A stretch of 64,000 bases of DNA, taken from Parcubacteria group bacterium LiPW_15. Lineage in GTDB: Bacteria; Patescibacteriota; Minisyncoccia; UBA6257; 2-01-FULL-56-20. A model generated the notes under the pieces. The model was not told where the DNA came from and made no database searches. It saw only the letters and a program-made list of their open reading frames with translations. The stretch is taken from contig VMER01000001.1 of the NCBI GenBank assembly GCA_007375645.1, forward strand, positions 337,576 through 401,575. The letters run 5' to 3'. The position numbers and the translations under genes were made by a program. Below, piece after piece: positions 656 through 59,487 of the stretch; the stretch's first letter is position 1, and each line of letters begins with the position of its first letter.

Positions 656-789
656 ACGACTTCCCCCTTCTGTGAATATTCTAAGGAGACTCTATCTCCC
701 GCAATATTCAATGTCAATCCGTTTTTTTATTTTAACCCAAACAAAAACATCCCTCCGCCAGCTGGCGGATCGGAGTGCTTTTTATTCGC

Positions 790-3589: not shown

Positions 3590-5023
3590 TCAAACCCTTA
3601 GGGCCTCGCGGAAATCCTTTACCGCTTGCAAAGGATTATCGAAATACCTGTCTATAAGTCTGGCGGCTAACTCCGGCGTGGTCTTCAATTTCTCGGTTAG
3701 CGCATAAACCGCCGGAAATAATCTCGTGTTTAAAACATTGTCCAAAATCCGCTTCCTAAGCCCCCGCTCCAACTCCTCGCCGATCATCTCTACAGTCGTC
3801 GCCCCAGGCATGGCCAAGTGTGCCAAATTTTCCATAAGCGCATTCATGCGGGCAAAAAGGACCAGCTGATACGGAAGCGGCATCTTGTGCTTTATGAATA
3901 TTTTTATAAACCCGACGAACCAGAAACCAAGACCGGCAAATTCTGTTTGCTCCAGATAATCTTCAACATCTTTCCGGATAAGACCCTTAAAACGCGCGTC
4001 TGCCCGACACATGCGAACTGCCACCTTGATAGATTCTTCCACATTTCCGGCATACACCGCCAAGATAAAATCTTTTGTCTCTTCACAATCCCTGCCTTCA
4101 AAATGCCCCAAAAGACCGTAGTCCAAAAGCGCCAAGCGCCCGTTCGGCAACAAAAGCACATTCGCCGGATGCGGATCACCATGGAAGTAAAAATCCGATT
4201 CGTGCATCCAATCGTAAAGGACCGCATTCATAAATCGTTTCATAGAAGAAACTGCGTCGTACTCCGGATTGTTCTTAATAAGTTCCAGCTTGTTCATCGG
4301 CACGCCATCTATAAAGTCCATAGTGATGACATTATCCGACAAAAATTCCTCATGAATATCCGGAATTACGATCGCGTGGGTATAAGGATTTTTCCCATTT
4401 TGCATCCGCCGCACATATTTTTTCACCGTTCTTAGATTTTCCGCCTCTCTTCTAAAATCGGTCTCCTGGAACATCCAATCCTCTATCTGAGAAACAACTA
4501 CATCCATTCGAATCTGTCGAAGACTGCGAGAAAATATTTTTGTGAGCCTAAGAAGCGATTTGATTATTGCGAGATCCGATTTTATGGTCCGTTGAATATT
4601 GGGCCGGCGGATCTTCACTGCCACATCCTCGCCCGTCGTGAGCTTCGCCCTATAAACCTGAGCGATAGAAGCCGAGGCGATGGGTTGGGTATCAAACTCT
4701 TTAAACAACTCCTCGGGATATTTTTTAAAATCAGCTAAAAATATCGCCCGCACAGTTTCTTCGGAGATGGGCGGAACCTTGTCTAGAAGGCCGGCCAACT
4801 CCGCAGAATCTTCTTTGGAAATTAACTCGTAGCGGGTACTGAGCAATTGTCCGAACTTTATAAACACCGGCCCCAATTCCTCGCAGGCCAGGCGGATGCG
4901 CCTCCCTAAAATAGCTTTGCGGTTGCCGGTGAATTTGTACCAAACAAAATATTTGCCGCAAACCAAAAGCACCCTTGGAATGCGCAAAGTTGTTCCTTGT
5001 TCTCTAGCGACGCGGTTTGTCAT
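3590..5023 (-). CDS. ABC1/UbiB-family (ADCK-like) atypical protein kinase
   Basis: 477 aa; FIKFGQLLSTR, ASIAQVYRA, FHGDPHPANVLL motifs typical of the ABC1 kinase family. Confidence 0.85.
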   Translation of the reverse strand: MTNRVAREQGTTLRIPRVLLVCGKYFVWYKFTGNRKAILGRRIRLACEELGPVFIKFGQLLSTRYELISKEDSAELAGLLDKVPPISEETVRAIFLADFKKYPEELFKEFDTQPIASASIAQVYRAKLTTGEDVAVKIRRPNIQRTIKSDLAIIKSLLRLTKIFSRSLRQIRMDVVVSQIEDWMFQETDFRREAENLRTVKKYVRRMQNGKNPYTHAIVIPDIHEEFLSDNVITMDFIDGVPMNKLELIKNNPEYDAVSSMKRFMNAVLYDWMHESDFYFHGDPHPANVLLLPNGRLALLDYGLLGHFEGRDCEETKDFILAVYAGNVEESIKVAVRMCRADARFKGLIRKDVEDYLEQTEFAGLGFWFVGFIKIFIKHKMPLPYQLVLFARMNALMENLAHLAMPGATTVEMIGEELERGLRKRILDNVLNTRLFPAVYALTEKLKTTPELAARLIDRYFDNPLQAVKDFREALRV

Positions 5024-5038
5024 ATCTCGACTGTTTTG

Positions 5039-5377
5039 TTATTTACAGTCTGCGCAAAAATAATATTTTTTACCAGCCTTGTTCTCGCCGACCACCCCAA
5101 CCGTGCCCTTGGAAATTGTTTTCCCGCAAGAAGCGCATTCCATATCCTGAGCGAACTGGGCCCGGTGGAAACTCACAATATCTTCGAATTTATTTTTTTT
5201 ATCCCCCGCGCCGAATATCTCCCGCGAAAGATCATGGATTATCTCCACGCTGTCCTCTATCGCCTTGCGAGCCAAATTGGAAACGCTCTCTCGGTTCTCC
5301 TTGGCTTTCTGCTTCATCTTTTCGTAGGTTTTCCGGGAAACCCGAAAATTAATGATGTAGTCCTTGTTTTCGTCCAT
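5039..5377 (-). CDS. small ribbon-helix-helix (CopG-like) protein with C-terminal CxxC...CxxC zinc ribbon
   Basis: 112 aa; N-terminus INFRVSRKTYEKMKQKAKE..SVSNLARKAIED (RHH-like); C-terminus CASCGK...FCADCK. Confidence 0.6.
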   Translation of the reverse strand: MDENKDYIINFRVSRKTYEKMKQKAKENRESVSNLARKAIEDSVEIIHDLSREIFGAGDKKNKFEDIVSFHRAQFAQDMECASCGKTISKGTVGVVGENKAGKKYYFCADCK

Positions 5378-12239: not shown

Positions 12240-12869
12240 CTATAAACTAAGCCCGGTAAATAAAGTGAATAGAGCGCCGATGATCGGCCGCAATATCGAA
12301 AATCCGAAAAAGATAAAAAGGAAGATCAAAATCATTCCATTCCGTTCCAAGGCCGTCAGAAATTTAAAGGTCCTCTCCCCTTGCGGAAGTATCGCCATCA
12401 AAACCTTCGAGCCATCAAGCGGCGGAATCGGCACCAGGTTAAAAACTCCGAGCGAAACATTCGCAAAAGCTATGCCCGCGAAAAGCGCCGGCAATATATC
12501 GTTCGGCGTCATCCCATAAAGATAACTAAATCTGACCGCGAGCCCAAAGATAAACGCCAAAAGAAAATTACTTAATGGTCCGGCCGCCGCGATCTTTGCC
12601 GCACCCGTGCGCGGATTTTTTAAATTCATCGGGTTATACGGCACGGGCTTCGCCCAACCGAAAAGCACCGGCGAATTTGTAAACACCAAAATGAGCGGCA
12701 AGAGAACCGAACCGAAGATATCAATGTGACTTAGCGGATTCATAGTGAGCCGTCCGGCGTTCCGCGCCGTCGGGTCGCCCAATTTTTCCGCTACAAACCC
12801 GTGCGATACTTCGTGTATCATCACGGAAAATACGAGAACCACCAATCCGAAAAGATGAACCAGATCCAT
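12240..12869 (-). CDS. site-2 protease family (M50) zinc metallopeptidase
   Basis: 209 aa polytopic membrane protein with HEVSHG (HExxH) and NLVPIPPLDG motifs. Confidence 0.85.
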   Translation of the reverse strand: MDLVHLFGLVVLVFSVMIHEVSHGFVAEKLGDPTARNAGRLTMNPLSHIDIFGSVLLPLILVFTNSPVLFGWAKPVPYNPMNLKNPRTGAAKIAAAGPLSNFLLAFIFGLAVRFSYLYGMTPNDILPALFAGIAFANVSLGVFNLVPIPPLDGSKVLMAILPQGERTFKFLTALERNGMILIFLFIFFGFSILRPIIGALFTLFTGLSL

Positions 12870-30998: not shown

Positions 30999-31259
30999 TT
31001 ACGGATGAAAAGCGGGTTTGGATTTTATTAGATCCAGCTTTTTGCTTCTTTCCCAGCTTTTGATTTCCGCCTCCCGCTTCAGGGCGGAACTTCTGGTCGG
31101 GTGTTTTTCGGTATAAACGATTTTCTTGGCTCCGTGCGCCGAGGTATATCCCCCGCCCTTTCTGTCTTTATGCTCCACAAATCTCCGTTTTAAGTCGGTC
31201 GTAATTCCCGTATACAAACTGCCATCAGCGCATTTGAGAATGTAAACAAAATATAACAT
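30999..31259 (-). CDS. GIY-YIG nuclease superfamily protein (UPF0213-like)
   Basis: 86 aa; YFVYILKCADGSLYTGITTDLKRRFVEH. Confidence 0.85.
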   Translation of the reverse strand: MLYFVYILKCADGSLYTGITTDLKRRFVEHKDRKGGGYTSAHGAKKIVYTEKHPTRSSALKREAEIKSWERSKKLDLIKSKPAFHP

Positions 31260-35260: not shown

Positions 35261-35335
35261 TGGCTGCGGGACCTGGATTCGAACCAAGATACTCGCCTTC
35301 AGAGGGCGATGTCCTACCATTAGACGATCCCGCAA
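35261..35335 (-). tRNA. tRNA-Gln (anticodon CTG), CCA encoded
   Basis: reverse complement folds as TGCGGGA..; anticodon loop CTCTGAA; T-loop TTCGAAT. Confidence 0.8.
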
Positions 35336-35361
35336 TTTGTTTGCGCAGCCTGCTACCATTA

Positions 35362-35381
35362 CCTGCCTGCCGGCAGGCAGG
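35362..35381. repeat. perfect 20 bp palindrome CCTGCCTGCCGGCAGGCAGG (copy 1 of 3)
   Basis: exact match to copies at 51029 and 58962. Confidence 0.9.
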
Positions 35382-35444
35382 GATGACCCGGCAATTGCGT
35401 ATTAACGCACATCAATATTACCCAAATAAGCGTTTTTTGGCAAC

Positions 35445-43708: not shown

Positions 43709-43889
43709 GGGAGATATCTCACGCGCTCGTTCCACTCGCTTTTCAGAACCCACGGTTCTGAATAATCTCCTCCACGGGGAACCGAGCGCGGTTCCCCGAC
43801 CCCCTCCGCTGTTCGATTCTCCCTTAATCATAGAATTAAATCAACCGACCATAAAGGCCGATTTGATTTAATTTGTGGACCCGGGGAGA
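43709..43889 (+). mobile_element. miniature tRNA-3'-end-associated element, copy A
   Basis: 15 bp direct repeat gtggacccggggaga at 43709..43723 and 43875..43889 (the tRNA-Ala(CGC) 3' end); conserved core at 43768..43823; nested-palindrome hairpin. Confidence 0.55.
43768..43823 (+). repeat. conserved core of the miniature element: TCCTCCACGG-ggaaccgagcgcggttcc-CCGACCCCCTccgctGTTCGATTCTCCC
   Basis: shares CCACGG..G(N)TTCCCCGACCCC..GTyCGAkTC with copies B (57205..57259) and C (50750..50843, minus strand); the last 13 nt are an inverted copy of the tRNA-Ala(CGC) T-arm. Confidence 0.6.
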
Positions 43890-43946
43890 ATCGAACTCCC
43901 GCCTCAGCAATGCGAATGCCGCGTTATGCCACTTAACTACGGGCCC
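43876..43946 (-). tRNA. tRNA-Ala (anticodon CGC), G3:U70, no encoded CCA
   Basis: reverse complement folds as GGGCCCG-TA-GTTA..; anticodon loop TTCGCAT; T-arm GGGAG-TTCGATT-CTCCC. Confidence 0.8.
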
Positions 43947-50621: not shown

Positions 50622-50694
50622 GCGGGAGGATTAGGGAATGGTTTCCCGGGGAGCCCCATAAGCTCTTGAAGCTGGTCCGATTCCAGCTCCCGCA
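50622..50694 (+). ncRNA. non-canonical tRNA-like gene (perfect 7 bp acceptor stem GCGGGAG/CTCCCGC, T-arm GCTGG-TCCGATT-CCAGC, irregular D/anticodon region)
   Basis: 73 nt; acceptor and T-arm fold by hand, but no canonical anticodon arm; its 3' end is the direct-repeat target of element C. Confidence 0.45.
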
Positions 50695-50964
50695 ACAAGA
50701 AACAAAAACACCCCGAGGGGTGTTTTTGTTTTGATGTTGGAATCGGACGTGAAGGGGGTCGGGGAAACGGCGGTTGCTCGCGCAAGTAAACAAACGTCTT
50801 TCCGCCGATAGGCGGGGCCGTGGCGGAAATACTGCAATTGGTAGCGAGGATAAAATGGCATTGAACATTTTAGCCGAGCGAACCAATTGATGGCTTGTCC
50901 TTCAAACCGCGGGGTGTTAGAAAATTCGCAAAGCGAATTTTGTCTGCTTCCAGCTCCCGCAACA
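50681..50964 (-). mobile_element. miniature tRNA-3'-end-associated element, copy C
   Basis: 17 bp direct repeat ttccagctcccgcaaca at 50681..50697 (the tRNA-like 3' end) and 50948..50964; conserved core at 50750..50843 on the minus strand, with a roughly 45 nt expansion of the hairpin; spacer homologous to copy B. Confidence 0.55.
50704..50731. terminator. bidirectional intrinsic terminator / centre of a 22 bp nested palindrome
   Basis: aaaaacaccccgaggggtgttttt. Confidence 0.65.
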
Positions 50965-51028
50965 GCTTCAGTTTTCAATTTCGCGAAGACAGCGTCAACC
51001 GCTTCCAGCGAGCGGTTGCGCCTGAATC

Positions 51029-51048
51029 CCTGCCTGCCGGCAGGCAGG
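51029..51048. repeat. perfect 20 bp palindrome CCTGCCTGCCGGCAGGCAGG (copy 2 of 3)
   Basis: exact match; lies in a roughly 900 bp ORF-poor region. Confidence 0.9.
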
Positions 51049-51201
51049 TCGTAGCAAAAATCTGCCATTCGGCAGAACCAATCTTTTTGCTCCTCCAATG
51101 TCCTCCGCAAAATCGAAAACTTCCGCCGTGGAAGTAAGAGAAAAAAATATACAAAAAAAGCCGGTGTCCGCCACATACGTGGTTTCGTGTCCGGCTGCGC
51201 T

Positions 51202-51447
51202 TCACTGGGAAGCAGAGGTGGAATTCGGATTAAGCTTCGCCCGCAGCTCCGCGAGGAGCTCGACCGGATTGACGCCCCTGGCGTCCTTCGGTAGCAGGGC
51301 GCAGGCAGCCTCAACCAGCTTCTCCTCGAATGGGGTTCTTGTGTGGTTGGGGCTGGACTCATGGATTTCCCGGAGCGTCTTCAGAACGACGGTCATGAGC
51401 TTATCGTTCCCGAGCGATCGCAGATCGATTTCGTCCTTTTTGGGCAT
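51202..51447 (-). CDS. hypothetical small GC-rich protein
   Basis: 81 aa from the ATG preceded by a GAGAGGAG RBS. Confidence 0.4.
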   Translation of the reverse strand: MPKKDEIDLRSLGNDKLMTVVLKTLREIHESSPNHTRTPFEEKLVEAACALLPKDARGVNPVELLAELRAKLNPNSTSASQ

Positions 51448-51576
51448 CGCTACCAATCTCCTCTCGTCCCAAATTAGAGAACTTCGCACATTGTACGCTT
51501 TTCCGTGAAACATCGCAATAGCAGGTTTGCATCCGCCCTCCCGCAGTGTTTTAATTTCAACAATATAGCTCGGAAA

Positions 51577-57027: not shown

Positions 57028-57144
57028 CCCACAATCTTAAACCCAGGACCCGCGCATATCAAAACTCCCTTTCCCGTTCGAGCCGCTAGATTAAATGCTT
57101 ATTTCTAAATACCATGCCAGAGCCAACTTTAAATATCTTTCAAA

Positions 57145-57322
57145 GTCGGCCGGAATCAAACAAAATTTGCTTCTCAAATTTTCTAACACCTTGTGGTTTT
57201 AGTATTTCCACCACGGGGAAACTTCCGTTTCCCCGACCCCTTTCCCGTTCGAGTCCGGCTGGATACAGAGCAACCAAAAAATGCCCGATGGGCATATTTT
57301 GGTTGCTGCGCGGTCGGCCGGA
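57145..57322 (+). mobile_element. miniature tRNA-3'-end-associated element, copy B
   Basis: direct repeat gtcggccgga(N)tc at 57145..57157 and 57313..57325 (inside the tRNA-Asp 3' region); conserved core at 57205..57259; nested palindrome. Confidence 0.55.
57275..57300. terminator. bidirectional intrinsic terminator between element B and tRNA-Asp
   Basis: aaaaaatgcccgatgggcatatttt inside the outer stem gcaaccaaaa/ttttggttgc. Confidence 0.65.
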
Positions 57323-57383
57323 CTCGAACCGGTAACCCCCGCCGTGACAGGGCGGTGCTCTAACCAAATTGAGCTACGACCGC
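57309..57383 (-). tRNA. tRNA-Asp (anticodon GTC), no encoded CCA
   Basis: reverse complement folds as GCGGTCG-TA-GCTC..; anticodon loop CTGTCAC; T-arm CCGG-TTCGAGT-CCGG. Confidence 0.8.
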
Positions 57384-57429: not shown

Positions 57430-59487
57430 CTATCCGATGAGCCTTAGGAATTCCTTTTCGCTTAGGATTTTGACCCCCAGCTCTTTAGCCTTCTTATACT
57501 TACTCCCCGGCTCGGCACCGGCCACGAGATAAGAGGTTTTGGAGCTAACCGATTCGGAAACGTCTCCCCCAAGTTCTCTTATCTTTTGTTTCGCAAGCTC
57601 GCGAGACATGGAATCCATGGAACCGGTGATGACAAAAGAAAGGTCTTTCAGTTTTTCGACTTTCACCGAAGGCGGCGCGAGAACAATCACTACCCCGGCG
57701 GCTTCAAGCTTTCCCAAAAGATGAGTATTCCTTTTTTCCTTGAACCATTCGTAAATGCTTTCGGCGACTTTCGGACCAATATCTTTTATCTCTTGTAATC
57801 GCTCCAGCGAAAGTCCGCCGTAAAAGTTCAAAAATTTGGAAATGCTCAAGCGCCCACTCTTCTTCTCCGGAAATATATTCGCAAGGGTTATCGCAGTTTC
57901 TTCGCCCACATGAATTATTCCTAAGGAGTAAATAAAGCGTGAAAGAGGGACTGATCTTTTCGCTTCGACTTCTTTTATAACATTTTCCGCCGACTTTTCA
58001 CCGAAACGAGGCAGGGCTTCCACATCTCCTTGTTTCAGGGTAAAAATGTCCGCCGCATCGACTATCAAGCCCTCGTCCAATAATCTATCTATTATTTTTG
58101 GACCCAAACCGTCCAAATTAAATCCTCCGCGGGATATAAAATGATAAAGCTGCTCCCTGTGTCGCGCGCCGCAATACTTGTTGGAACATTTATAAGCCAC
58201 CCCGTCACGAATGACCCCGGACCCGTCTACGGGACAGTTCTCCGGCATCTTGAACTTTTTTTCCTTGCCGGTCCGGAACTCCGGCAAAACCTTGGTTATT
58301 TGCGGGATAACGTCTCCGGCCCGGGAAACGATAACTGTGTCGCCAACCCTTACCCCAAGCCGTTCTATCTCATCCGCATTATGAAGGCTCGCGTGGGTTA
58401 TGGTCACGCCGCCCACGTTCACCGGACGCATCACCGCGACCGGCGTCAGCGCCCCAGTACGACCGACCTGAACCTCTATCGCCTCCACAATGGTCGTGGC
58501 TTCCCTCGGAGAAAACTTGTAGGCGATTCCCGCGCGCGGAGTTTTGCCGATTATCCCCGCTTCTTCGTATGTGGCGTTGTCGTTTATGGAAATAACTATG
58601 CCGTCTATTTCATAAGCAAGGCGCTCTCTCATTTTTAGAACGTCTTTATGAAATTCGAATATCTCTTCTATATTTCTCGCAACTATGCCGTGCGGATTGG
58701 TTTTGAGCCCGTATTTATTGAGTTCGGCGTATTCCTCGGATTTTGTTCTGTATCCGGGAGTAACAACATCGTAGGCGTAAAAATCCAATTTCCTTGAGGC
58801 GGTTATCTTCGGATCCAATTGCCGTATGGAACCGGCGGCGACATTGCGAGGATTCGCATAGGGTTTTTCTCCTTTTTTCTCCTGCTCGCGGTTCAGCCTC
58901 GCAAATTCTTTTTTGGTCAGGAAGGTTTCCCCGCGAACGATGAGGCGCTTGGGATATCCGCCCTGCCTGCCGGCAGGCAGGTCCCCTCTCTCGAGTCTTA
59001 AGGGTATCGCGTCAATAGTTTTCAAATTTTCCGTGACATCTTCGCCGATCATGCCGTCTCCGCGCGTGGACCCGGAAACAAAGAGGCCATCTTCGTAGAT
59101 AAGCTCCATCGCGAGACCGTCCATTTTTAGATCGCAATAAAATCCGTTTTTTGCGAAACTAGTTTTGGGTCCGAAATAATTTTTTAGACGCGTGAGCCAT
59201 TCCTGAATATCCTGCGGGGAAAATGCGTCGTTTAGGGAGATCATCCGCGTTCCGTGCCTGACTTTTTTAAAAGCGGAAAGCGGCTTTCCCCCAACCCGTT
59301 GAGTCGGTGAATCTTTGGCAATAAATTCCGGATAGCGCGATTCCAGATCAAAAAGCTCCTTCTTTAAAGAGTCCAGGGCCCCTTCGGAAATAAGAGATTT
59401 ATCCAAAACATGGTACGCGTAGCGGTACTTATTTATTTCCGTCTTTAGTTTTTCGATACGCTTCTTGGCCTCATCCTTAGCCGTCAT
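57430..59487 (-). CDS. ligA: NAD-dependent DNA ligase
   Basis: 685 aa; adenylation KxDG region, OB fold, Zn finger, HhH and BRCT; carries an in-frame 7 aa insertion LPAGRQG encoded by the 20 bp palindrome. Confidence 0.95.
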   Translation of the reverse strand: MTAKDEAKKRIEKLKTEINKYRYAYHVLDKSLISEGALDSLKKELFDLESRYPEFIAKDSPTQRVGGKPLSAFKKVRHGTRMISLNDAFSPQDIQEWLTRLKNYFGPKTSFAKNGFYCDLKMDGLAMELIYEDGLFVSGSTRGDGMIGEDVTENLKTIDAIPLRLERGDLPAGRQGGYPKRLIVRGETFLTKKEFARLNREQEKKGEKPYANPRNVAAGSIRQLDPKITASRKLDFYAYDVVTPGYRTKSEEYAELNKYGLKTNPHGIVARNIEEIFEFHKDVLKMRERLAYEIDGIVISINDNATYEEAGIIGKTPRAGIAYKFSPREATTIVEAIEVQVGRTGALTPVAVMRPVNVGGVTITHASLHNADEIERLGVRVGDTVIVSRAGDVIPQITKVLPEFRTGKEKKFKMPENCPVDGSGVIRDGVAYKCSNKYCGARHREQLYHFISRGGFNLDGLGPKIIDRLLDEGLIVDAADIFTLKQGDVEALPRFGEKSAENVIKEVEAKRSVPLSRFIYSLGIIHVGEETAITLANIFPEKKSGRLSISKFLNFYGGLSLERLQEIKDIGPKVAESIYEWFKEKRNTHLLGKLEAAGVVIVLAPPSVKVEKLKDLSFVITGSMDSMSRELAKQKIRELGGDVSESVSSKTSYLVAGAEPGSKYKKAKELGVKILSEKEFLRLIG
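58962..58981. repeat. perfect 20 bp palindrome CCTGCCTGCCGGCAGGCAGG (copy 3 of 3), inside the ligA coding sequence
   Basis: exact match; ligA remains a continuous ORF across it. Confidence 0.9.

What the first reader, a model, noticed from the sequence alone, without database searches (positions are those of the whole stretch)
58962..58981. Perfect 20 bp palindrome inserted in-frame within ligA (adds LPAGRQG to a surface loop)
CCTGCCTGCCGGCAGGCAGG occurs three times (35362, 51029, 58962) with different flanks. The copy at 58962 lies inside ligA and keeps the reading frame. Between the adenylation and OB domains ligA reads ERGD-LPAGRQG-GYPKRLIVRGETF. Canonical LigA, recalled from E. coli as IP[x]RLEVRGEVF (from memory, not checked), has about 7 fewer residues here. 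A REP/MITE-like palindromic element tolerated inside an essential gene is unusual. It implies a mobile or recombinogenic palindrome family in this genome.
Basis: partly seen in the sequence, partly recalled or inferred. Interest (0 to 1): 0.7.

Follow-up and report, generated by a model that had tools for sequence, protein, structure and literature searches.

The report
Wandering 20-bp hairpin inside DNA ligase
The 20-base palindrome inside the DNA ligase gene is a real, exact insertion of a tiny hairpin element that occurs letter-for-letter in many bacterial phyla and in viral contigs, and whose usual position is just upstream of a small GIY-YIG nuclease gene parked at tRNA genes.

Summary
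CCTGCCTGCCGGCAGGCAGG ("P1") occurs three times in the window (0 expected). The ligA copy is lineage-specific. Six close orthologs, including one at 92% nucleotide identity, have an empty site.

At the DNA level the event is an exact 20-bp insertion with no target duplication. One extra base about 10 nt upstream restores the frame. The insert lies inside the adenylation domain, not between that domain and the OB domain.

P1 is not specific to this genome. The exact 20-mer hit the 120-locus limit of a scan of bacterial and archaeal species genomes; the record titles name about 10 bacterial phyla and seven cultured Bacteroidota. It also occurs in 35 viral stretches, always with unrelated flanks.

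P1 has a protein partner. In 80 metagenome loci chosen only by protein similarity, 28 carry exact P1 13-51 nt upstream of a ~80-aa single-domain GIY-YIG gene. The usual layout is: tRNA 5' fragment split by P1, then the GIY-YIG gene, then an intact tRNA. Window copy 1 is such a scar at tRNA-Gln. A decayed GIY-YIG gene lies about 290 nt downstream of ligA's stop.

The closest known system is the Ssn nuclease / hairpin-repeat pair (2025). No RAYT or other transposase recurs near the copies. I rate it a new variant of a known kind.

The parts
58962..58981 (.). P1 copy 3: exact 20-bp palindrome inserted in ligA, translated as (D)LPAGRQ(G)
   Evidence: Empty sites in orthologs P0002, P0005, P0006, P0007 and P0124. 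Filled site with one substitution in sister lineage P0121.
58987..58992 (-). Stretch holding the one extra base that restores the ligA frame. Window reads CTC GAG AGA GGG GA; empty alleles read CTN GAR GAG GGG A.
   Evidence: With P1 removed, the window sequence aligns to the orthologs with a single 1-nt gap and no mismatch across GAGGGGAGCGG. The extra base is present in both filled lineages. It is absent from the five empty alleles that keep the EEGSG codons; P0003 has a shorter local sequence and is uninformative.
57430..59487 (-). ligA (NAD-dependent DNA ligase, 685 aa), host gene of copy 3
35362..35381 (.). P1 copy 1, splitting a degenerate 5' copy of tRNA-Gln after nucleotide 12
35382..35393 (-). 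Part A of the tRNA-Gln 5' pseudo-fragment (TGCCGGGTCATC, matching tRNA nt 1-12)
   Evidence: Alignment A5: 18 of the first 21 positions are identical to tRNA-Gln once P1 is removed.
35343..35361 (-). Part B of the pseudo-fragment (TAATGGTAGCAGGCTGCGC, matching tRNA nt 13-31), followed by an 8-nt spacer
35261..35334 (-). Intact tRNA-Gln(CTG) downstream of the scar
51029..51048 (.). P1 copy 2
50708..51504 (.). About 0.8 kb stretch with no recognised gene that holds copy 2. It is absent from the syntenic relative and begins next to a tRNA(CAU). Parts of it resemble the segment beside tRNA-Asp.
   Evidence: relative L122 has about 80 nt here. (no Pfam match for its ORFs). (81-88% identity to 57149-57256).
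57089..57144 (-). Decayed 3' end of a GIY-YIG gene, about 290 nt downstream of the ligA stop codon
   Evidence: The gene is intact (79 aa) in sister-strain contig L244 at 12441-12680 and is not called in L243 or L245. tblastn: 12 of 17 residues identical, E 4.9e-4. blastn: 81% over 59 nt, E 2.6e-7.
57308..57383 (-). tRNA-Asp between ligA and the GIY-YIG remnant

Best explanation
P1 is the hairpin repeat that partners a clade of small (~80 aa) single-domain GIY-YIG nucleases. These resemble the recently described Ssn nucleases, which bind a specific hairpin in single-stranded DNA and cut a few nucleotides beside it.

The gene-plus-hairpin unit usually sits at tRNA genes in this order: a 5' piece of the tRNA split by P1 (usually between nucleotides 21 and 22, in the D loop), then the nuclease gene, then an intact copy of the tRNA. 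The nuclease gene is often lost later, leaving P1 scars.

P1 also appears alone at unrelated sites, as an exact 20-bp unit with no duplication or loss of target bases. I infer that the nuclease makes the breaks in transiently single-stranded DNA, and that the hairpin is then copied or ligated in.

In ligA such a solo insertion landed inside a Ser codon, in a loop of the adenylation domain. Because 20 is not a multiple of 3, it survived only together with one extra base about 10 nt upstream. Three codons are therefore read in a shifted frame (E to R, S to D...G), and seven residues are added.

Shown: exact insertion, the compensating base, the spread across phyla, and the physical link to GIY-YIG genes and tRNA genes. 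Inferred: that the GIY-YIG protein recognises P1 and drives its spread, and the single-strand route.
For: Exact insertion plus compensation:
- Window: CTC GAG AGA GGG GA[P1]GC GGA TAT. Empty alleles: CTN GAR GAG GGG AGC GGN TAY, in P0002, P0005, P0006, P0007 and P0124 (the last at 92.2% nucleotide identity).
- Sister lineage P0121 (91.6% identity, 11 contigs) is filled, carries the same extra base, and has one substitution in P1.

Link to the nuclease:
- A GIY-YIG ORF (PF01541) starts 19-40 nt after P1 in L037, L060, L106, L118 and L155.
- Independent test: of 80 metagenome loci picked by protein similarity alone, 28 have exact P1 upstream and 12-17 more have 1-3-nt variants, some of them compensatory. 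49 of the 80 are followed by a tRNA gene.
- The proteins are only 43-63% identical to the query, while P1 is unchanged.

Precision of insertion:
- In 19 resolved cassettes P1 splits the tRNA copy with no gain or loss. In 16 of the 19 the part before P1 is 20-24 nt long, so P1 sits at or within two nucleotides of position 21|22.
- Scars without the ORF: L001, L004, L030, L083 (which keeps the first 7 codons of the lost gene) and window copy 1.
- A GIY-YIG gene is polymorphic beside ligA in this lineage and decayed in the window.

Other support:
- Catalytic-type residues (Y, Y, R, H, E) are invariant in alignment A4.
- Published biochemistry for the related Ssn family: a single-domain GIY-YIG binds a hairpin repeat as ssDNA, by sequence as well as shape, and cuts just upstream; most family genes are flanked by such repeats (PMC11893778).
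- P1 is also read in frame as LPAGRQ in FtsK, GatB, ScpB and a sugar dehydratase in other genomes.
Against: - No experiment or structure links this GIY-YIG clade to P1; the link is positional only.
- About 40% of genes in the clade have no P1 or P1 variant upstream.
- The GIY-YIG gene next to ligA in the sister strain has no P1 upstream, and neither does the window's own intact GIY-YIG gene at 30999-31259.
- About 95% of the P1 copies found by the genome scan have no GIY-YIG gene within the locus held, and whole genomes could not be checked for a nuclease acting in trans.
- P1 does not fit the published search pattern for Ssn-related repeats and lacks their oriented 5' flank.
- A GIY-YIG hydrolase has no known way of rejoining DNA, so a ligation or copying step must be assumed.
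- The intermediate in ligA (20 bp without the +1 base) should have been lethal unless both changes arose in one event.
- Since the split from the sister lineage the ligA copy has changed at about the rate of ordinary coding DNA (1 change where about 1.7 are expected at 8.4% divergence; my estimate). At this site, therefore, nothing is keeping the palindrome perfect.
Confidence: 0.62

Rival explanations
1. Solo copies such as the one in ligA are footprints. On this view a whole P1 + GIY-YIG cassette once sat there and the gene was later deleted, leaving only P1.
For: Gene loss that leaves P1 behind is seen directly. L083 keeps the first 7 codons of the lost ORF. L001, L004, L030 and window copy 1 are ORF-less scars. 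A cassette can sit in frame inside a protein gene, as in HsdS in L060. A GIY-YIG gene is being lost right next to ligA.
Against: Apart from P1 and one extra base, the ligA site is identical to the empty alleles across GAGGGGA|GCGG. No leftover ORF, spacer or duplicated target is present. A ~250-bp out-of-frame cassette inside a probably essential gene would have to be tolerated first. Most solo copies show no nearby duplication.
Confidence: 0.12
2. P1 is kept by the host for a function. It could be an RNA hairpin that stabilises or processes transcripts, such as the leader of the nuclease mRNA made from the tRNA promoter. Or it could be a tag for restriction of incoming single-stranded DNA, as proposed for the Neisseria NTS repeat. 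Mobility would then be secondary.
For: P1 lies in the presumed 5' leader of the GIY-YIG ORF. Variants mostly change the central loop or change both arms together. Four of the five single-arm variants in cassettes would keep a G-U pair in the sense RNA (a weak signal). Published work shows that the Ssn/NTS pair modulates transformation (PMC11893778). The neighbourhood carries type IV pilus genes, seen in the relatives' loci.
Against: A purely structural RNA role does not explain letter-for-letter identity across phyla. It also does not explain copies inside ligA, ftsK, gatB and scpB, or nested and tandem copies. P1 has no U tract, so it is not an intrinsic terminator. Published SsnA does not act on RNA. 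This reading does not explain how new copies arise, so it complements the main explanation rather than replacing it.
Confidence: 0.15
3. P1 is a REP-type or IS200/IS605-type element moved by a tyrosine HUH transposase (RAYT/TnpA).
For: Like those elements, P1 is a short hairpin that inserts without a target duplication and is depleted in coding sequence: 23% of copies are in long open frames against 68% of random positions.
Against: P1 has no GTAG or CGTC tag. It is a perfect palindrome identical across phyla, whereas REPs are species-specific. Clustering of all ORFs in 155 P1 loci gave no recurrent transposase-like family. The only recurrent family that sits on or directly next to P1 is GIY-YIG. 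The independent protein-first test recovers P1 from GIY-YIG genes.
Confidence: 0.04
4. The palindrome is an artefact (adapter, chimera or assembler error) or a chance occurrence.
For: Most carriers are metagenome-assembled genomes.
Against: There were 0 of 100 shuffles with any match. The ligA frame is restored by a second change. The filled allele recurs on 11 contigs from several samples and archives and has acquired a substitution. P1 is present in isolate genomes and in assemblies whose names suggest long-read data. In cassettes the flanks match the local tRNA.
Confidence: 0.01

Closest known systems
Ssn nucleases with their NTS/SRM hairpin repeats (Chenal et al., Nat Commun 2025, PMC11893778)
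   Same: Both involve a single-domain GIY-YIG protein of about 80-95 aa. In both, the gene is flanked by a 20-50-nt hairpin-forming repeat that is also dispersed in many copies, and the pairs occur across phyla. The published enzyme binds the hairpin as single-stranded DNA, by sequence as well as shape, and cuts a few nucleotides upstream. The authors note that the layout looks like an insertion sequence.
   Different: P1 is a perfect, unoriented 20-bp palindrome. It lacks the conserved HGTCWY flank and fails the published SRM search pattern. It lies mainly on the 5' side of the gene, inside a duplicated tRNA 5' fragment. The paper's main text does not mention tRNA genes, Bacteroidota or Patescibacteria. 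P1 is identical across phyla, whereas NTS varies. NTS is rarely inside genes (2%), whereas several P1 copies are translated inside housekeeping genes. Whether the P1-linked proteins fall in the defining cd10448 clade could not be tested.
Rickettsia palindromic elements (RPE; Ogata et al. 2000, from my own knowledge)
   Same: [quoted passage not shown] The Ssn paper lists Rickettsia among the genomes richest in Ssn-related repeats.
   Different: RPEs are 100-150 bp, their length is a multiple of 3, and they are confined to one genus. P1 is 20 bp, so it needs a second frame-restoring change, and it is found across phyla.
REP/BIME repeats with RAYT transposases, and IS200/IS605 single-strand 'peel and paste' elements
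   Same: All are short hairpin repeats that insert without a target duplication and are linked to a small nuclease gene flanked by the repeat.
   Different: The enzyme class differs (GIY-YIG hydrolase against HUH tyrosine transposase). P1 has no GTAG/CGTC tag and is not species-specific. No covalent-intermediate chemistry is known for GIY-YIG enzymes.
Free-standing GIY-YIG homing endonuclease genes (for example T4 SegB in the tRNA gene cluster, PMC2330249) and I-TevI
   Same: A GIY-YIG gene is lodged among or in tRNA genes and is present or absent between close strains (L244 against L243/L245). P1 lies 8-35 nt upstream of the gene's insertion point. This recalls I-TevI, which cuts about 23-25 nt from its insertion site (from my own knowledge).
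   Different: The P1-linked proteins have only the catalytic domain and no DNA-binding domain. The cassette regenerates an intact tRNA by duplicating its 5' part. A conserved hairpin accompanies the gene, which is not a feature of Seg or Tev elements.
GC-rich palindromes of fungal mitochondria (Neurospora 'PstI palindromes' flanking tRNA genes; yeast GC clusters; from my own knowledge)
   Same: These are highly conserved short GC-rich palindromes that cluster at tRNA genes in AT-richer genomes. They occasionally lie in frame inside coding regions, and their means of spread is unknown.
   Different: They are organellar and have different sequences, and no partner nuclease has been established.

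Membership tests
Ssn nuclease / SRM hairpin-repeat pair | Small single-domain GIY-YIG protein (~94 aa) with conserved catalytic Tyr, Tyr and Glu | tested here: met
   PF01541 covers essentially the whole 79-88-aa protein. Y18, R28, H32 and E64 are invariant in A4. Nearest solved structures are single-domain UPF0213 proteins.
Ssn nuclease / SRM hairpin-repeat pair | Protein falls in the cd10448 clade, or hits N. meningitidis SsnA (CAX49033.1) at E < 1e-10 | not testable with these tools
   No CDD library and no SsnA sequence were available. NCBIfam gave no match.
Ssn nuclease / SRM hairpin-repeat pair | Gene flanked by a hairpin-forming repeat that is also dispersed elsewhere | tested here: met
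   28 of 80 loci have exact P1 and 12-17 more have variants within about 110 nt upstream. P1 lies on both sides of the gene or between tandem genes in L232 and L167. Solo copies are dispersed.
Ssn nuclease / SRM hairpin-repeat pair | Repeat fits the SRM pattern HGTCWY...RNCYNB with an oriented conserved 5' flank | tested here: not met
   P1 does not match. There are 0 SRM matches in 166 kb of GIY-YIG loci, and 1 in the window against 0.5 in shuffles.
Ssn nuclease / SRM hairpin-repeat pair | Site-specific cleavage of single-stranded DNA next to the repeat | not testable with these tools
   This needs biochemistry.
REP / RAYT | Imperfect palindrome with a conserved GTAG or CGTC tetranucleotide at one end | tested here: not met
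   P1 is a perfect palindrome starting with CCTG. The only flank preference is purine before and pyrimidine after, with A..T flanks in 40 of 167 copies.
REP / RAYT | Cognate tyrosine (HUH) transposase gene flanked by the repeat | tested here: inconclusive
   No recurrent transposase-like family appears among ORFs of 155 P1 loci. Complete genomes could not be examined.
MITE | Terminal inverted repeats around an internal body, with a target-site duplication of fixed length | tested here: not met
   There is no internal body (10 + 10 bp). 95 of 163 copies have no flanking repeat and 48 have 1 nt, which is the chance level. The 7-8-bp flanking repeats in 6 copies are seen, in the cases inspected, where the surrounding DNA is itself tandemly repeated. 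ligA and 19 tRNA cases show no duplication.
Free-standing GIY-YIG homing endonuclease | GIY-YIG catalytic domain joined to a DNA-binding domain; gene present or absent at a conserved target between relatives | tested here: inconclusive
   Presence/absence polymorphism is seen (L244 against L243/L245) and the target is conserved (tRNA). No DNA-binding domain is present.

The most novel reading that the evidence does not exclude
P1 may be a self-standing mobile element of only 20 bp, which would be the smallest known. On this reading a single-domain GIY-YIG nuclease cuts it out of, and into, transiently single-stranded DNA by a hydrolytic counterpart of 'peel and paste' transposition, and host ligase reseals the strand. 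This would be the first DNA transposition system driven by a GIY-YIG enzyme in bacteria. It would be active from Patescibacteria to Bacteroidota and in their phages, and able to write a fixed peptide (LPAGRQ) into essential proteins.
Probability: 0.3. Interest if true: 0.85.

Novelty: new variant of a known kind. Interest (0 to 1): 0.66.

Why it matters
- **A natural record of insertion events.** The biochemistry of Ssn-type nucleases was described only in 2025. How their hairpin repeats multiply, and what the pairs do outside Neisseria, is still open. P1 supplies dozens of filled and empty site pairs showing an exact 20-bp unit with no target duplication, a strong preference for tRNA position 21|22, and repeated loss of the nuclease gene.
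- **Testable in culture.** Several cultured Bacteroidota carry P1, so the question can be taken to the bench.
- **Protein evolution.** A non-triplet selfish insertion became fixed in a core replication enzyme through a nearby compensating frameshift. The same six-residue peptide has been written into LigA, FtsK, GatB and ScpB in unrelated bacteria.
- **Annotation.** tRNA 5' fragments split by P1, and LPAGRQ-containing 'hypothetical proteins', are likely sources of annotation errors in metagenome-assembled genomes.

Tried and rejected
- **Rfam.** Scans of the window and of the copy-2 and tRNA-Asp regions matched no family other than tRNA, so P1 is not part of a curated RNA family.
- **Literature.** Full-text searches for the 20-mer, its 14-mer core and the three encoded peptides found nothing. 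Searches combining GIY-YIG with tRNA, palindrome, Bacteroidetes or CPR found nothing specific. The Patescibacteria tRNA-intron paper does not describe this element.
- **Spliced mini-intron.** Rejected for ligA. Removing the 20 nt from the mRNA would put the conserved downstream sequence out of frame.
- **Target duplication.** Flanking 5-14-bp repeats occur in only 8 of 163 copies. In the cases I inspected they arise where the surrounding DNA is itself tandemly repeated.
- **Preference for centres of existing inverted repeats.** Stems of 6 nt or more occur in 16 copies against about 5 in controls. This is real but concerns a minority of copies.
- **Shared neighbouring gene other than GIY-YIG.** None was found. 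The largest clusters are phage structural-type proteins shared among related viral contigs.
- **Co-variation of protein subclade with palindrome type.** P1, its variants and 'none' are interleaved within one broad clade, so no clean co-evolution signal emerged.
- **ORFs in the copy-2 insert.** They have no Pfam match.
- **Not attempted.** Structure prediction of LigA or of the nuclease was judged unnecessary.
Full report
**1. The observation**

The sequence CCTGCCTGCCGGCAGGCAGG (called P1 here) is present at 35362, 51029 and 58962. There are no near-variants in the window at up to three mismatches, and no match in 100 dinucleotide-preserving shuffles. As single-stranded DNA it folds into an 8-bp stem with a CCGG loop.

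The window comes from the Patescibacteria MAG 'Parcubacteria group bacterium LiPW_15'. Its LigA is identical to TSC60567.1, which lies on a 481,644-bp contig. ligA is 57430..59487 on the minus strand, and P1 is translated within it as ...LERGD-LPAGRQ-GGYPKRLIVRGETF.

**2. The ligA copy is an insertion, and what exactly was inserted**

I aligned the window LigA with 21 relatives (65-91% identity; the ten nearest 72-91%). Only the window protein carries the seven extra residues. E. coli LigA (PDB 2owo) has an 8-residue gap at the same place. The site is residues 172-178. That is inside the adenylation domain (PF01653, residues 71-327). The loop varies in length among orthologs.

At the DNA level:
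- P0002, P0005, P0006 and P0007 read CTN GAR GAG GGN AGC GGN TAY (L E E G S G Y).
- The window reads CTC GAG AGA GGG GA[P1]GC GGA TAT.
- With P1 removed, the window matches the orthologs with a single 1-nt gap and no mismatch across GAGGGGAGCGG.

So the event is an exact 20-bp insertion between the A and the GC of the Ser codon, with no target duplication. A separate extra base about 10 nt upstream restores the frame. The codons in between are read in a shifted frame (E to R; S becomes D at one end and G at the other). This also shows that the 20 nt are translated and not removed from the RNA.

The 90%-identity protein cluster gave two still closer alleles:
- P0124 (92.2% nucleotide identity over ligA) has the empty site CTT GAA GAG GGG AGC GGA TAT.
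- P0121 (91.6% identity, found on 11 contigs from several samples) has the filled site with the same extra base, and one substitution in P1 (CCTGTCTGCC..., Pro to Ser).

The insertion and its compensation therefore predate the split of these two lineages. Since then the segment has evolved like ordinary coding DNA. This also rules out an assembly artefact. The 13-22 kb held around ligA in each of three relatives (L122, L239, L243) contains no exact P1.

**3. P1 is not a property of this genome**

An exact-match scan of one genome per bacterial and archaeal species stopped at its 120-locus limit. By my calculation about 0.5 matches are expected by chance in 596 Gb.

The record titles name:
- many Patescibacteria lineages
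- Bacteroidota, including seven cultured isolates (Winogradskyella echinorum, Flagellimonas yonaguniensis, Longitalea luteola, Flavivirga sp., Aquiflexum lacus, Agriterribacter humi, Aestuariivivens sediminis)
- Omnitrophota, Planctomycetota, Verrucomicrobia/PVC, Elusimicrobia, Thermodesulfovibrionales, Thermodesulfobacteriota, Bdellovibrionales, 'Gammaproteobacteria' and Chloroflexi

35 viral stretches also carry it, including one 29.5-kb contig with six copies. The flanks are unrelated.

Statistics on 163-167 non-redundant copies:
- There is no general target duplication.
- A purine is favoured just before P1 and a pyrimidine just after. A..T flanks occur in 40 of 167 copies, giving a 22-bp form.
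- Copies at the centre of existing inverted repeats are modestly in excess.
- Some copies are nested inside another copy (L018, L042).
- 23% lie in long open frames, against 68% of random positions.

**4. The partner gene**

I clustered all ORFs from 155 P1 loci. One family sat directly on or next to P1: a small protein whose ORF begins 19-40 nt after P1 in L037, L060, L106, L118 and L155. It is a GIY-YIG catalytic domain and nothing else (PF01541). The nearest solved structures are the uncharacterised UPF0213 proteins 1ywl and 1zg2.

The layout is constant:
1. a 26-48-nt copy of the 5' part of a tRNA, split by P1
2. a few nucleotides of spacer
3. the ~80-aa ORF, whose stop codon lies at or inside the start of the tRNA
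4. an intact copy of the same tRNA

As an independent test I collected 80 metagenome loci by protein similarity alone:
- 28 have exact P1 13-51 nt upstream of the protein match, and 12-17 more have variants of 1-3 nt.
- The variants change mostly the central loop, or both arms together.
- 49 of the 80 are followed by a tRNA gene (Asn, Lys, Arg, Leu, Phe, His, Gly and others).
- The proteins are only 43-63% identical to the query, while P1 is unchanged.

In 19 resolved cassettes P1 splits the tRNA copy without gain or loss of a base. In 16 of the 19 the part before P1 is 20-24 nt long. That places P1 at or within two nucleotides of position 21|22 (...GGTA|GAGC..., the 3' edge of the D loop).

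The ORF is often lost. L083 keeps only its first seven codons. L001, L004 and L030 are ORF-less scars. In L060 the layout is P1, then 24 nt of host sequence, then the ORF, all lying in frame inside a type I HsdS gene with no long duplication. P1 also occurs inside otherwise complete tRNAs (L148, L085).

**5. The three window copies in that light**

- **Copy 1.** This is an ORF-less scar. On the minus strand the order is TGCCGGGTCATC, then P1, then TAATGGTAGCAGGCTGCGC, then 8 nt, then intact tRNA-Gln. With P1 removed, 18 of the first 21 positions match the tRNA.
- **Copy 2.** It lies in a ~0.8-kb stretch that is absent from the syntenic relative L122. The stretch begins beside a tRNA(CAU) and shares segments with the DNA beside tRNA-Asp.
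- **Copy 3 (ligA).** It is a solo copy. However, 380 nt downstream of ligA a sister-strain contig (L244) carries an intact 79-aa GIY-YIG gene next to tRNA-Asp. Two other contigs of the same lineage have no such gene called there. The window keeps only its decayed 3' end at 57089-57144. GIY-YIG cassettes are therefore coming and going in this very lineage. That particular gene, though, has no P1 upstream and scores lower against the P1-clade profile (74 bits, against 113-122 bits for the complete P1-linked genes).

**6. How it most likely works**

The closest described system is the Ssn family (Chenal et al. 2025, PMC11893778). Its members are single-domain GIY-YIG proteins of about 94 aa. They bind a hairpin repeat (NTS/SRM) only as single-stranded DNA, recognise both sequence and shape, and cut a few nucleotides upstream. 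71% of family genes have such repeats nearby. The authors remark that the repeat-gene-repeat layout looks like an insertion sequence.

By analogy, I take P1 to be the cognate hairpin of the GIY-YIG clade found here. This would explain three things:
- the letter-for-letter conservation, if a protein reads the sequence
- the compensatory variants, if the hairpin must form
- the position next to the gene

The step from recognition to spread is inference. My proposal is that cuts beside hairpins in transiently single-stranded DNA (replication, transcription of tRNA genes, incoming DNA) are followed by copying or ligation of the 20-nt hairpin. The exact 20-bp, duplication-free footprints fit a single-strand route better than a staggered double-strand cut.

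For ligA, the out-of-frame intermediate should have been lethal. I therefore suspect that the extra base in the GAGGAG run arose in the same repair event. I cannot show this.

**7. What argues against, and the rivals**

- About 40% of genes in the clade lack P1 or a variant upstream.
- Most solo copies have no nuclease gene within the locus held.
- P1 fails the published SRM pattern and has no oriented flank.
- Membership of the cd10448 clade could not be tested.

The footprint model (cassette inserted, then deleted) is supported for tRNA scars. It is unlikely for ligA, where nothing but P1 and one base differs from the empty alleles. A host-beneficial role is compatible with the data but does not explain how copies arise. 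Such a role could be an RNA leader hairpin, or a tag for restriction of incoming single strands as in Neisseria. REP/RAYT and MITE membership fail on their defining features. An artefact is excluded.

**8. Generality of the 'palindrome in an essential gene' aspect**

P1 is read in frame, always as LPAGRQ, in FtsK (L013), GatB (L104), ScpB (L053), a dTDP-glucose-dehydratase-like enzyme (L021) and a secreted BNR/sortilin-type protein (L014). In L021 an extra partial arm makes the insert about 30 nt by my reading, which is another way of regaining the frame. Among the 39 copies in long open frames, LPAGRQ is used 21 times and the two Cys-containing frames 9 times each. The nearest analogue is the Rickettsia palindromic elements.

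**9. Verdict**

It is best filed as a new variant of the recently described GIY-YIG nuclease / hairpin-repeat kind, not as a REP or MITE. The new features are:
- a perfect 20-bp palindrome identical across phyla and present in viral contigs
- a tRNA-linked cassette that regenerates its target
- exact, duplication-free insertion
- fixation in a core replication gene through a compensating frameshift

Noticed in passing
window 755-768: A second GC-rich perfect palindrome, CCGCCAGCTGGCGG (often TCCGCCAGCTGGCGGA), sits in what looks like a terminator-type hairpin. The same 14-mer recurs with unrelated flanks in 8 of the P1 loci from other phyla. In L011 and L040 it is embedded in a GTCATTCCGG-type repeat resembling the published Ssn-related motifs. 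It may be another hairpin repeat found across many phyla.
   Followed up: partly
window 30999-31259 (minus strand): An intact 86-aa single-domain GIY-YIG gene (PF01541, 67 bits; C-terminus of the ...EIKSWERSKK... type). It has no P1 or other palindrome upstream and no adjacent tRNA. It belongs to a different subgroup from the P1-linked clade.
   Followed up: partly
window 50622-50693 (plus strand): A tRNA with a CAU anticodon that ARAGORN misses. It was found only as a weak Rfam tRNA-Sec hit (33.5 bits). It is conserved in relative L122, with a compensatory change in the T stem, so it is probably a real gene.
   Followed up: partly
L244 12105-12276; window 57149-57256, 50739-50951, 43736-43777: In the sister strain, tRNA-Asp carries a 112-nt insert in the T arm that matches no Rfam family. 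In the window the related segment lies just downstream of an intact tRNA-Asp. Similar pieces occur after tRNA(CAU) and near tRNA-Ala. This looks like a second kind of tRNA-linked element.
   Followed up: partly
window 57241-57335 and 43811-43896: Inverted partial copies of the 3' parts of tRNA-Asp and tRNA-Ala lie next to those genes. They are the longest inverted repeats in the window (46 and 34 nt arms).
   Followed up: no
L167 598-1449: A tandem array of three near-identical GIY-YIG genes, with P1 upstream of the second and third, ahead of tRNA-Arg. This suggests amplification of the cassette.
   Followed up: no
L157 3916-4142 (viral contig): A P1 variant (CATGCCTACCGGCAGGCAGG plus one C) is repeated head to tail at least 10 times with a 21-bp period, running to the end of the stretch held.
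   Followed up: no
L093 about 4700-5100 (Saccharibacteria MAG): A GIY-YIG gene of the same superfamily lies inside an intervening sequence of the 23S rRNA gene, bounded by a stem formed from its two ends. No P1 is present.
   Followed up: no
L039 about 860-1100: The same cassette layout occurs at tRNA-Val (5' fragment, hairpin at position 21|22, a GIY-YIG-like ORF of which only a weak partial match was detected, intact tRNA). The hairpin is a different, composite GC-rich palindrome (CCCGCCCGTACCGAACGGGTACGTTCGGGCGGG). The hairpin position is therefore conserved while its sequence can differ.
   Followed up: partly
L049 around 940: Here P1 is inserted in the middle of a GTCATTGCGAGGAGCG...CGACGAAGCAATC repeat. 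That repeat has the GTCAT-type 5' tag of the published Ssn-related motifs. One hairpin repeat is thus nested in another.
   Followed up: no
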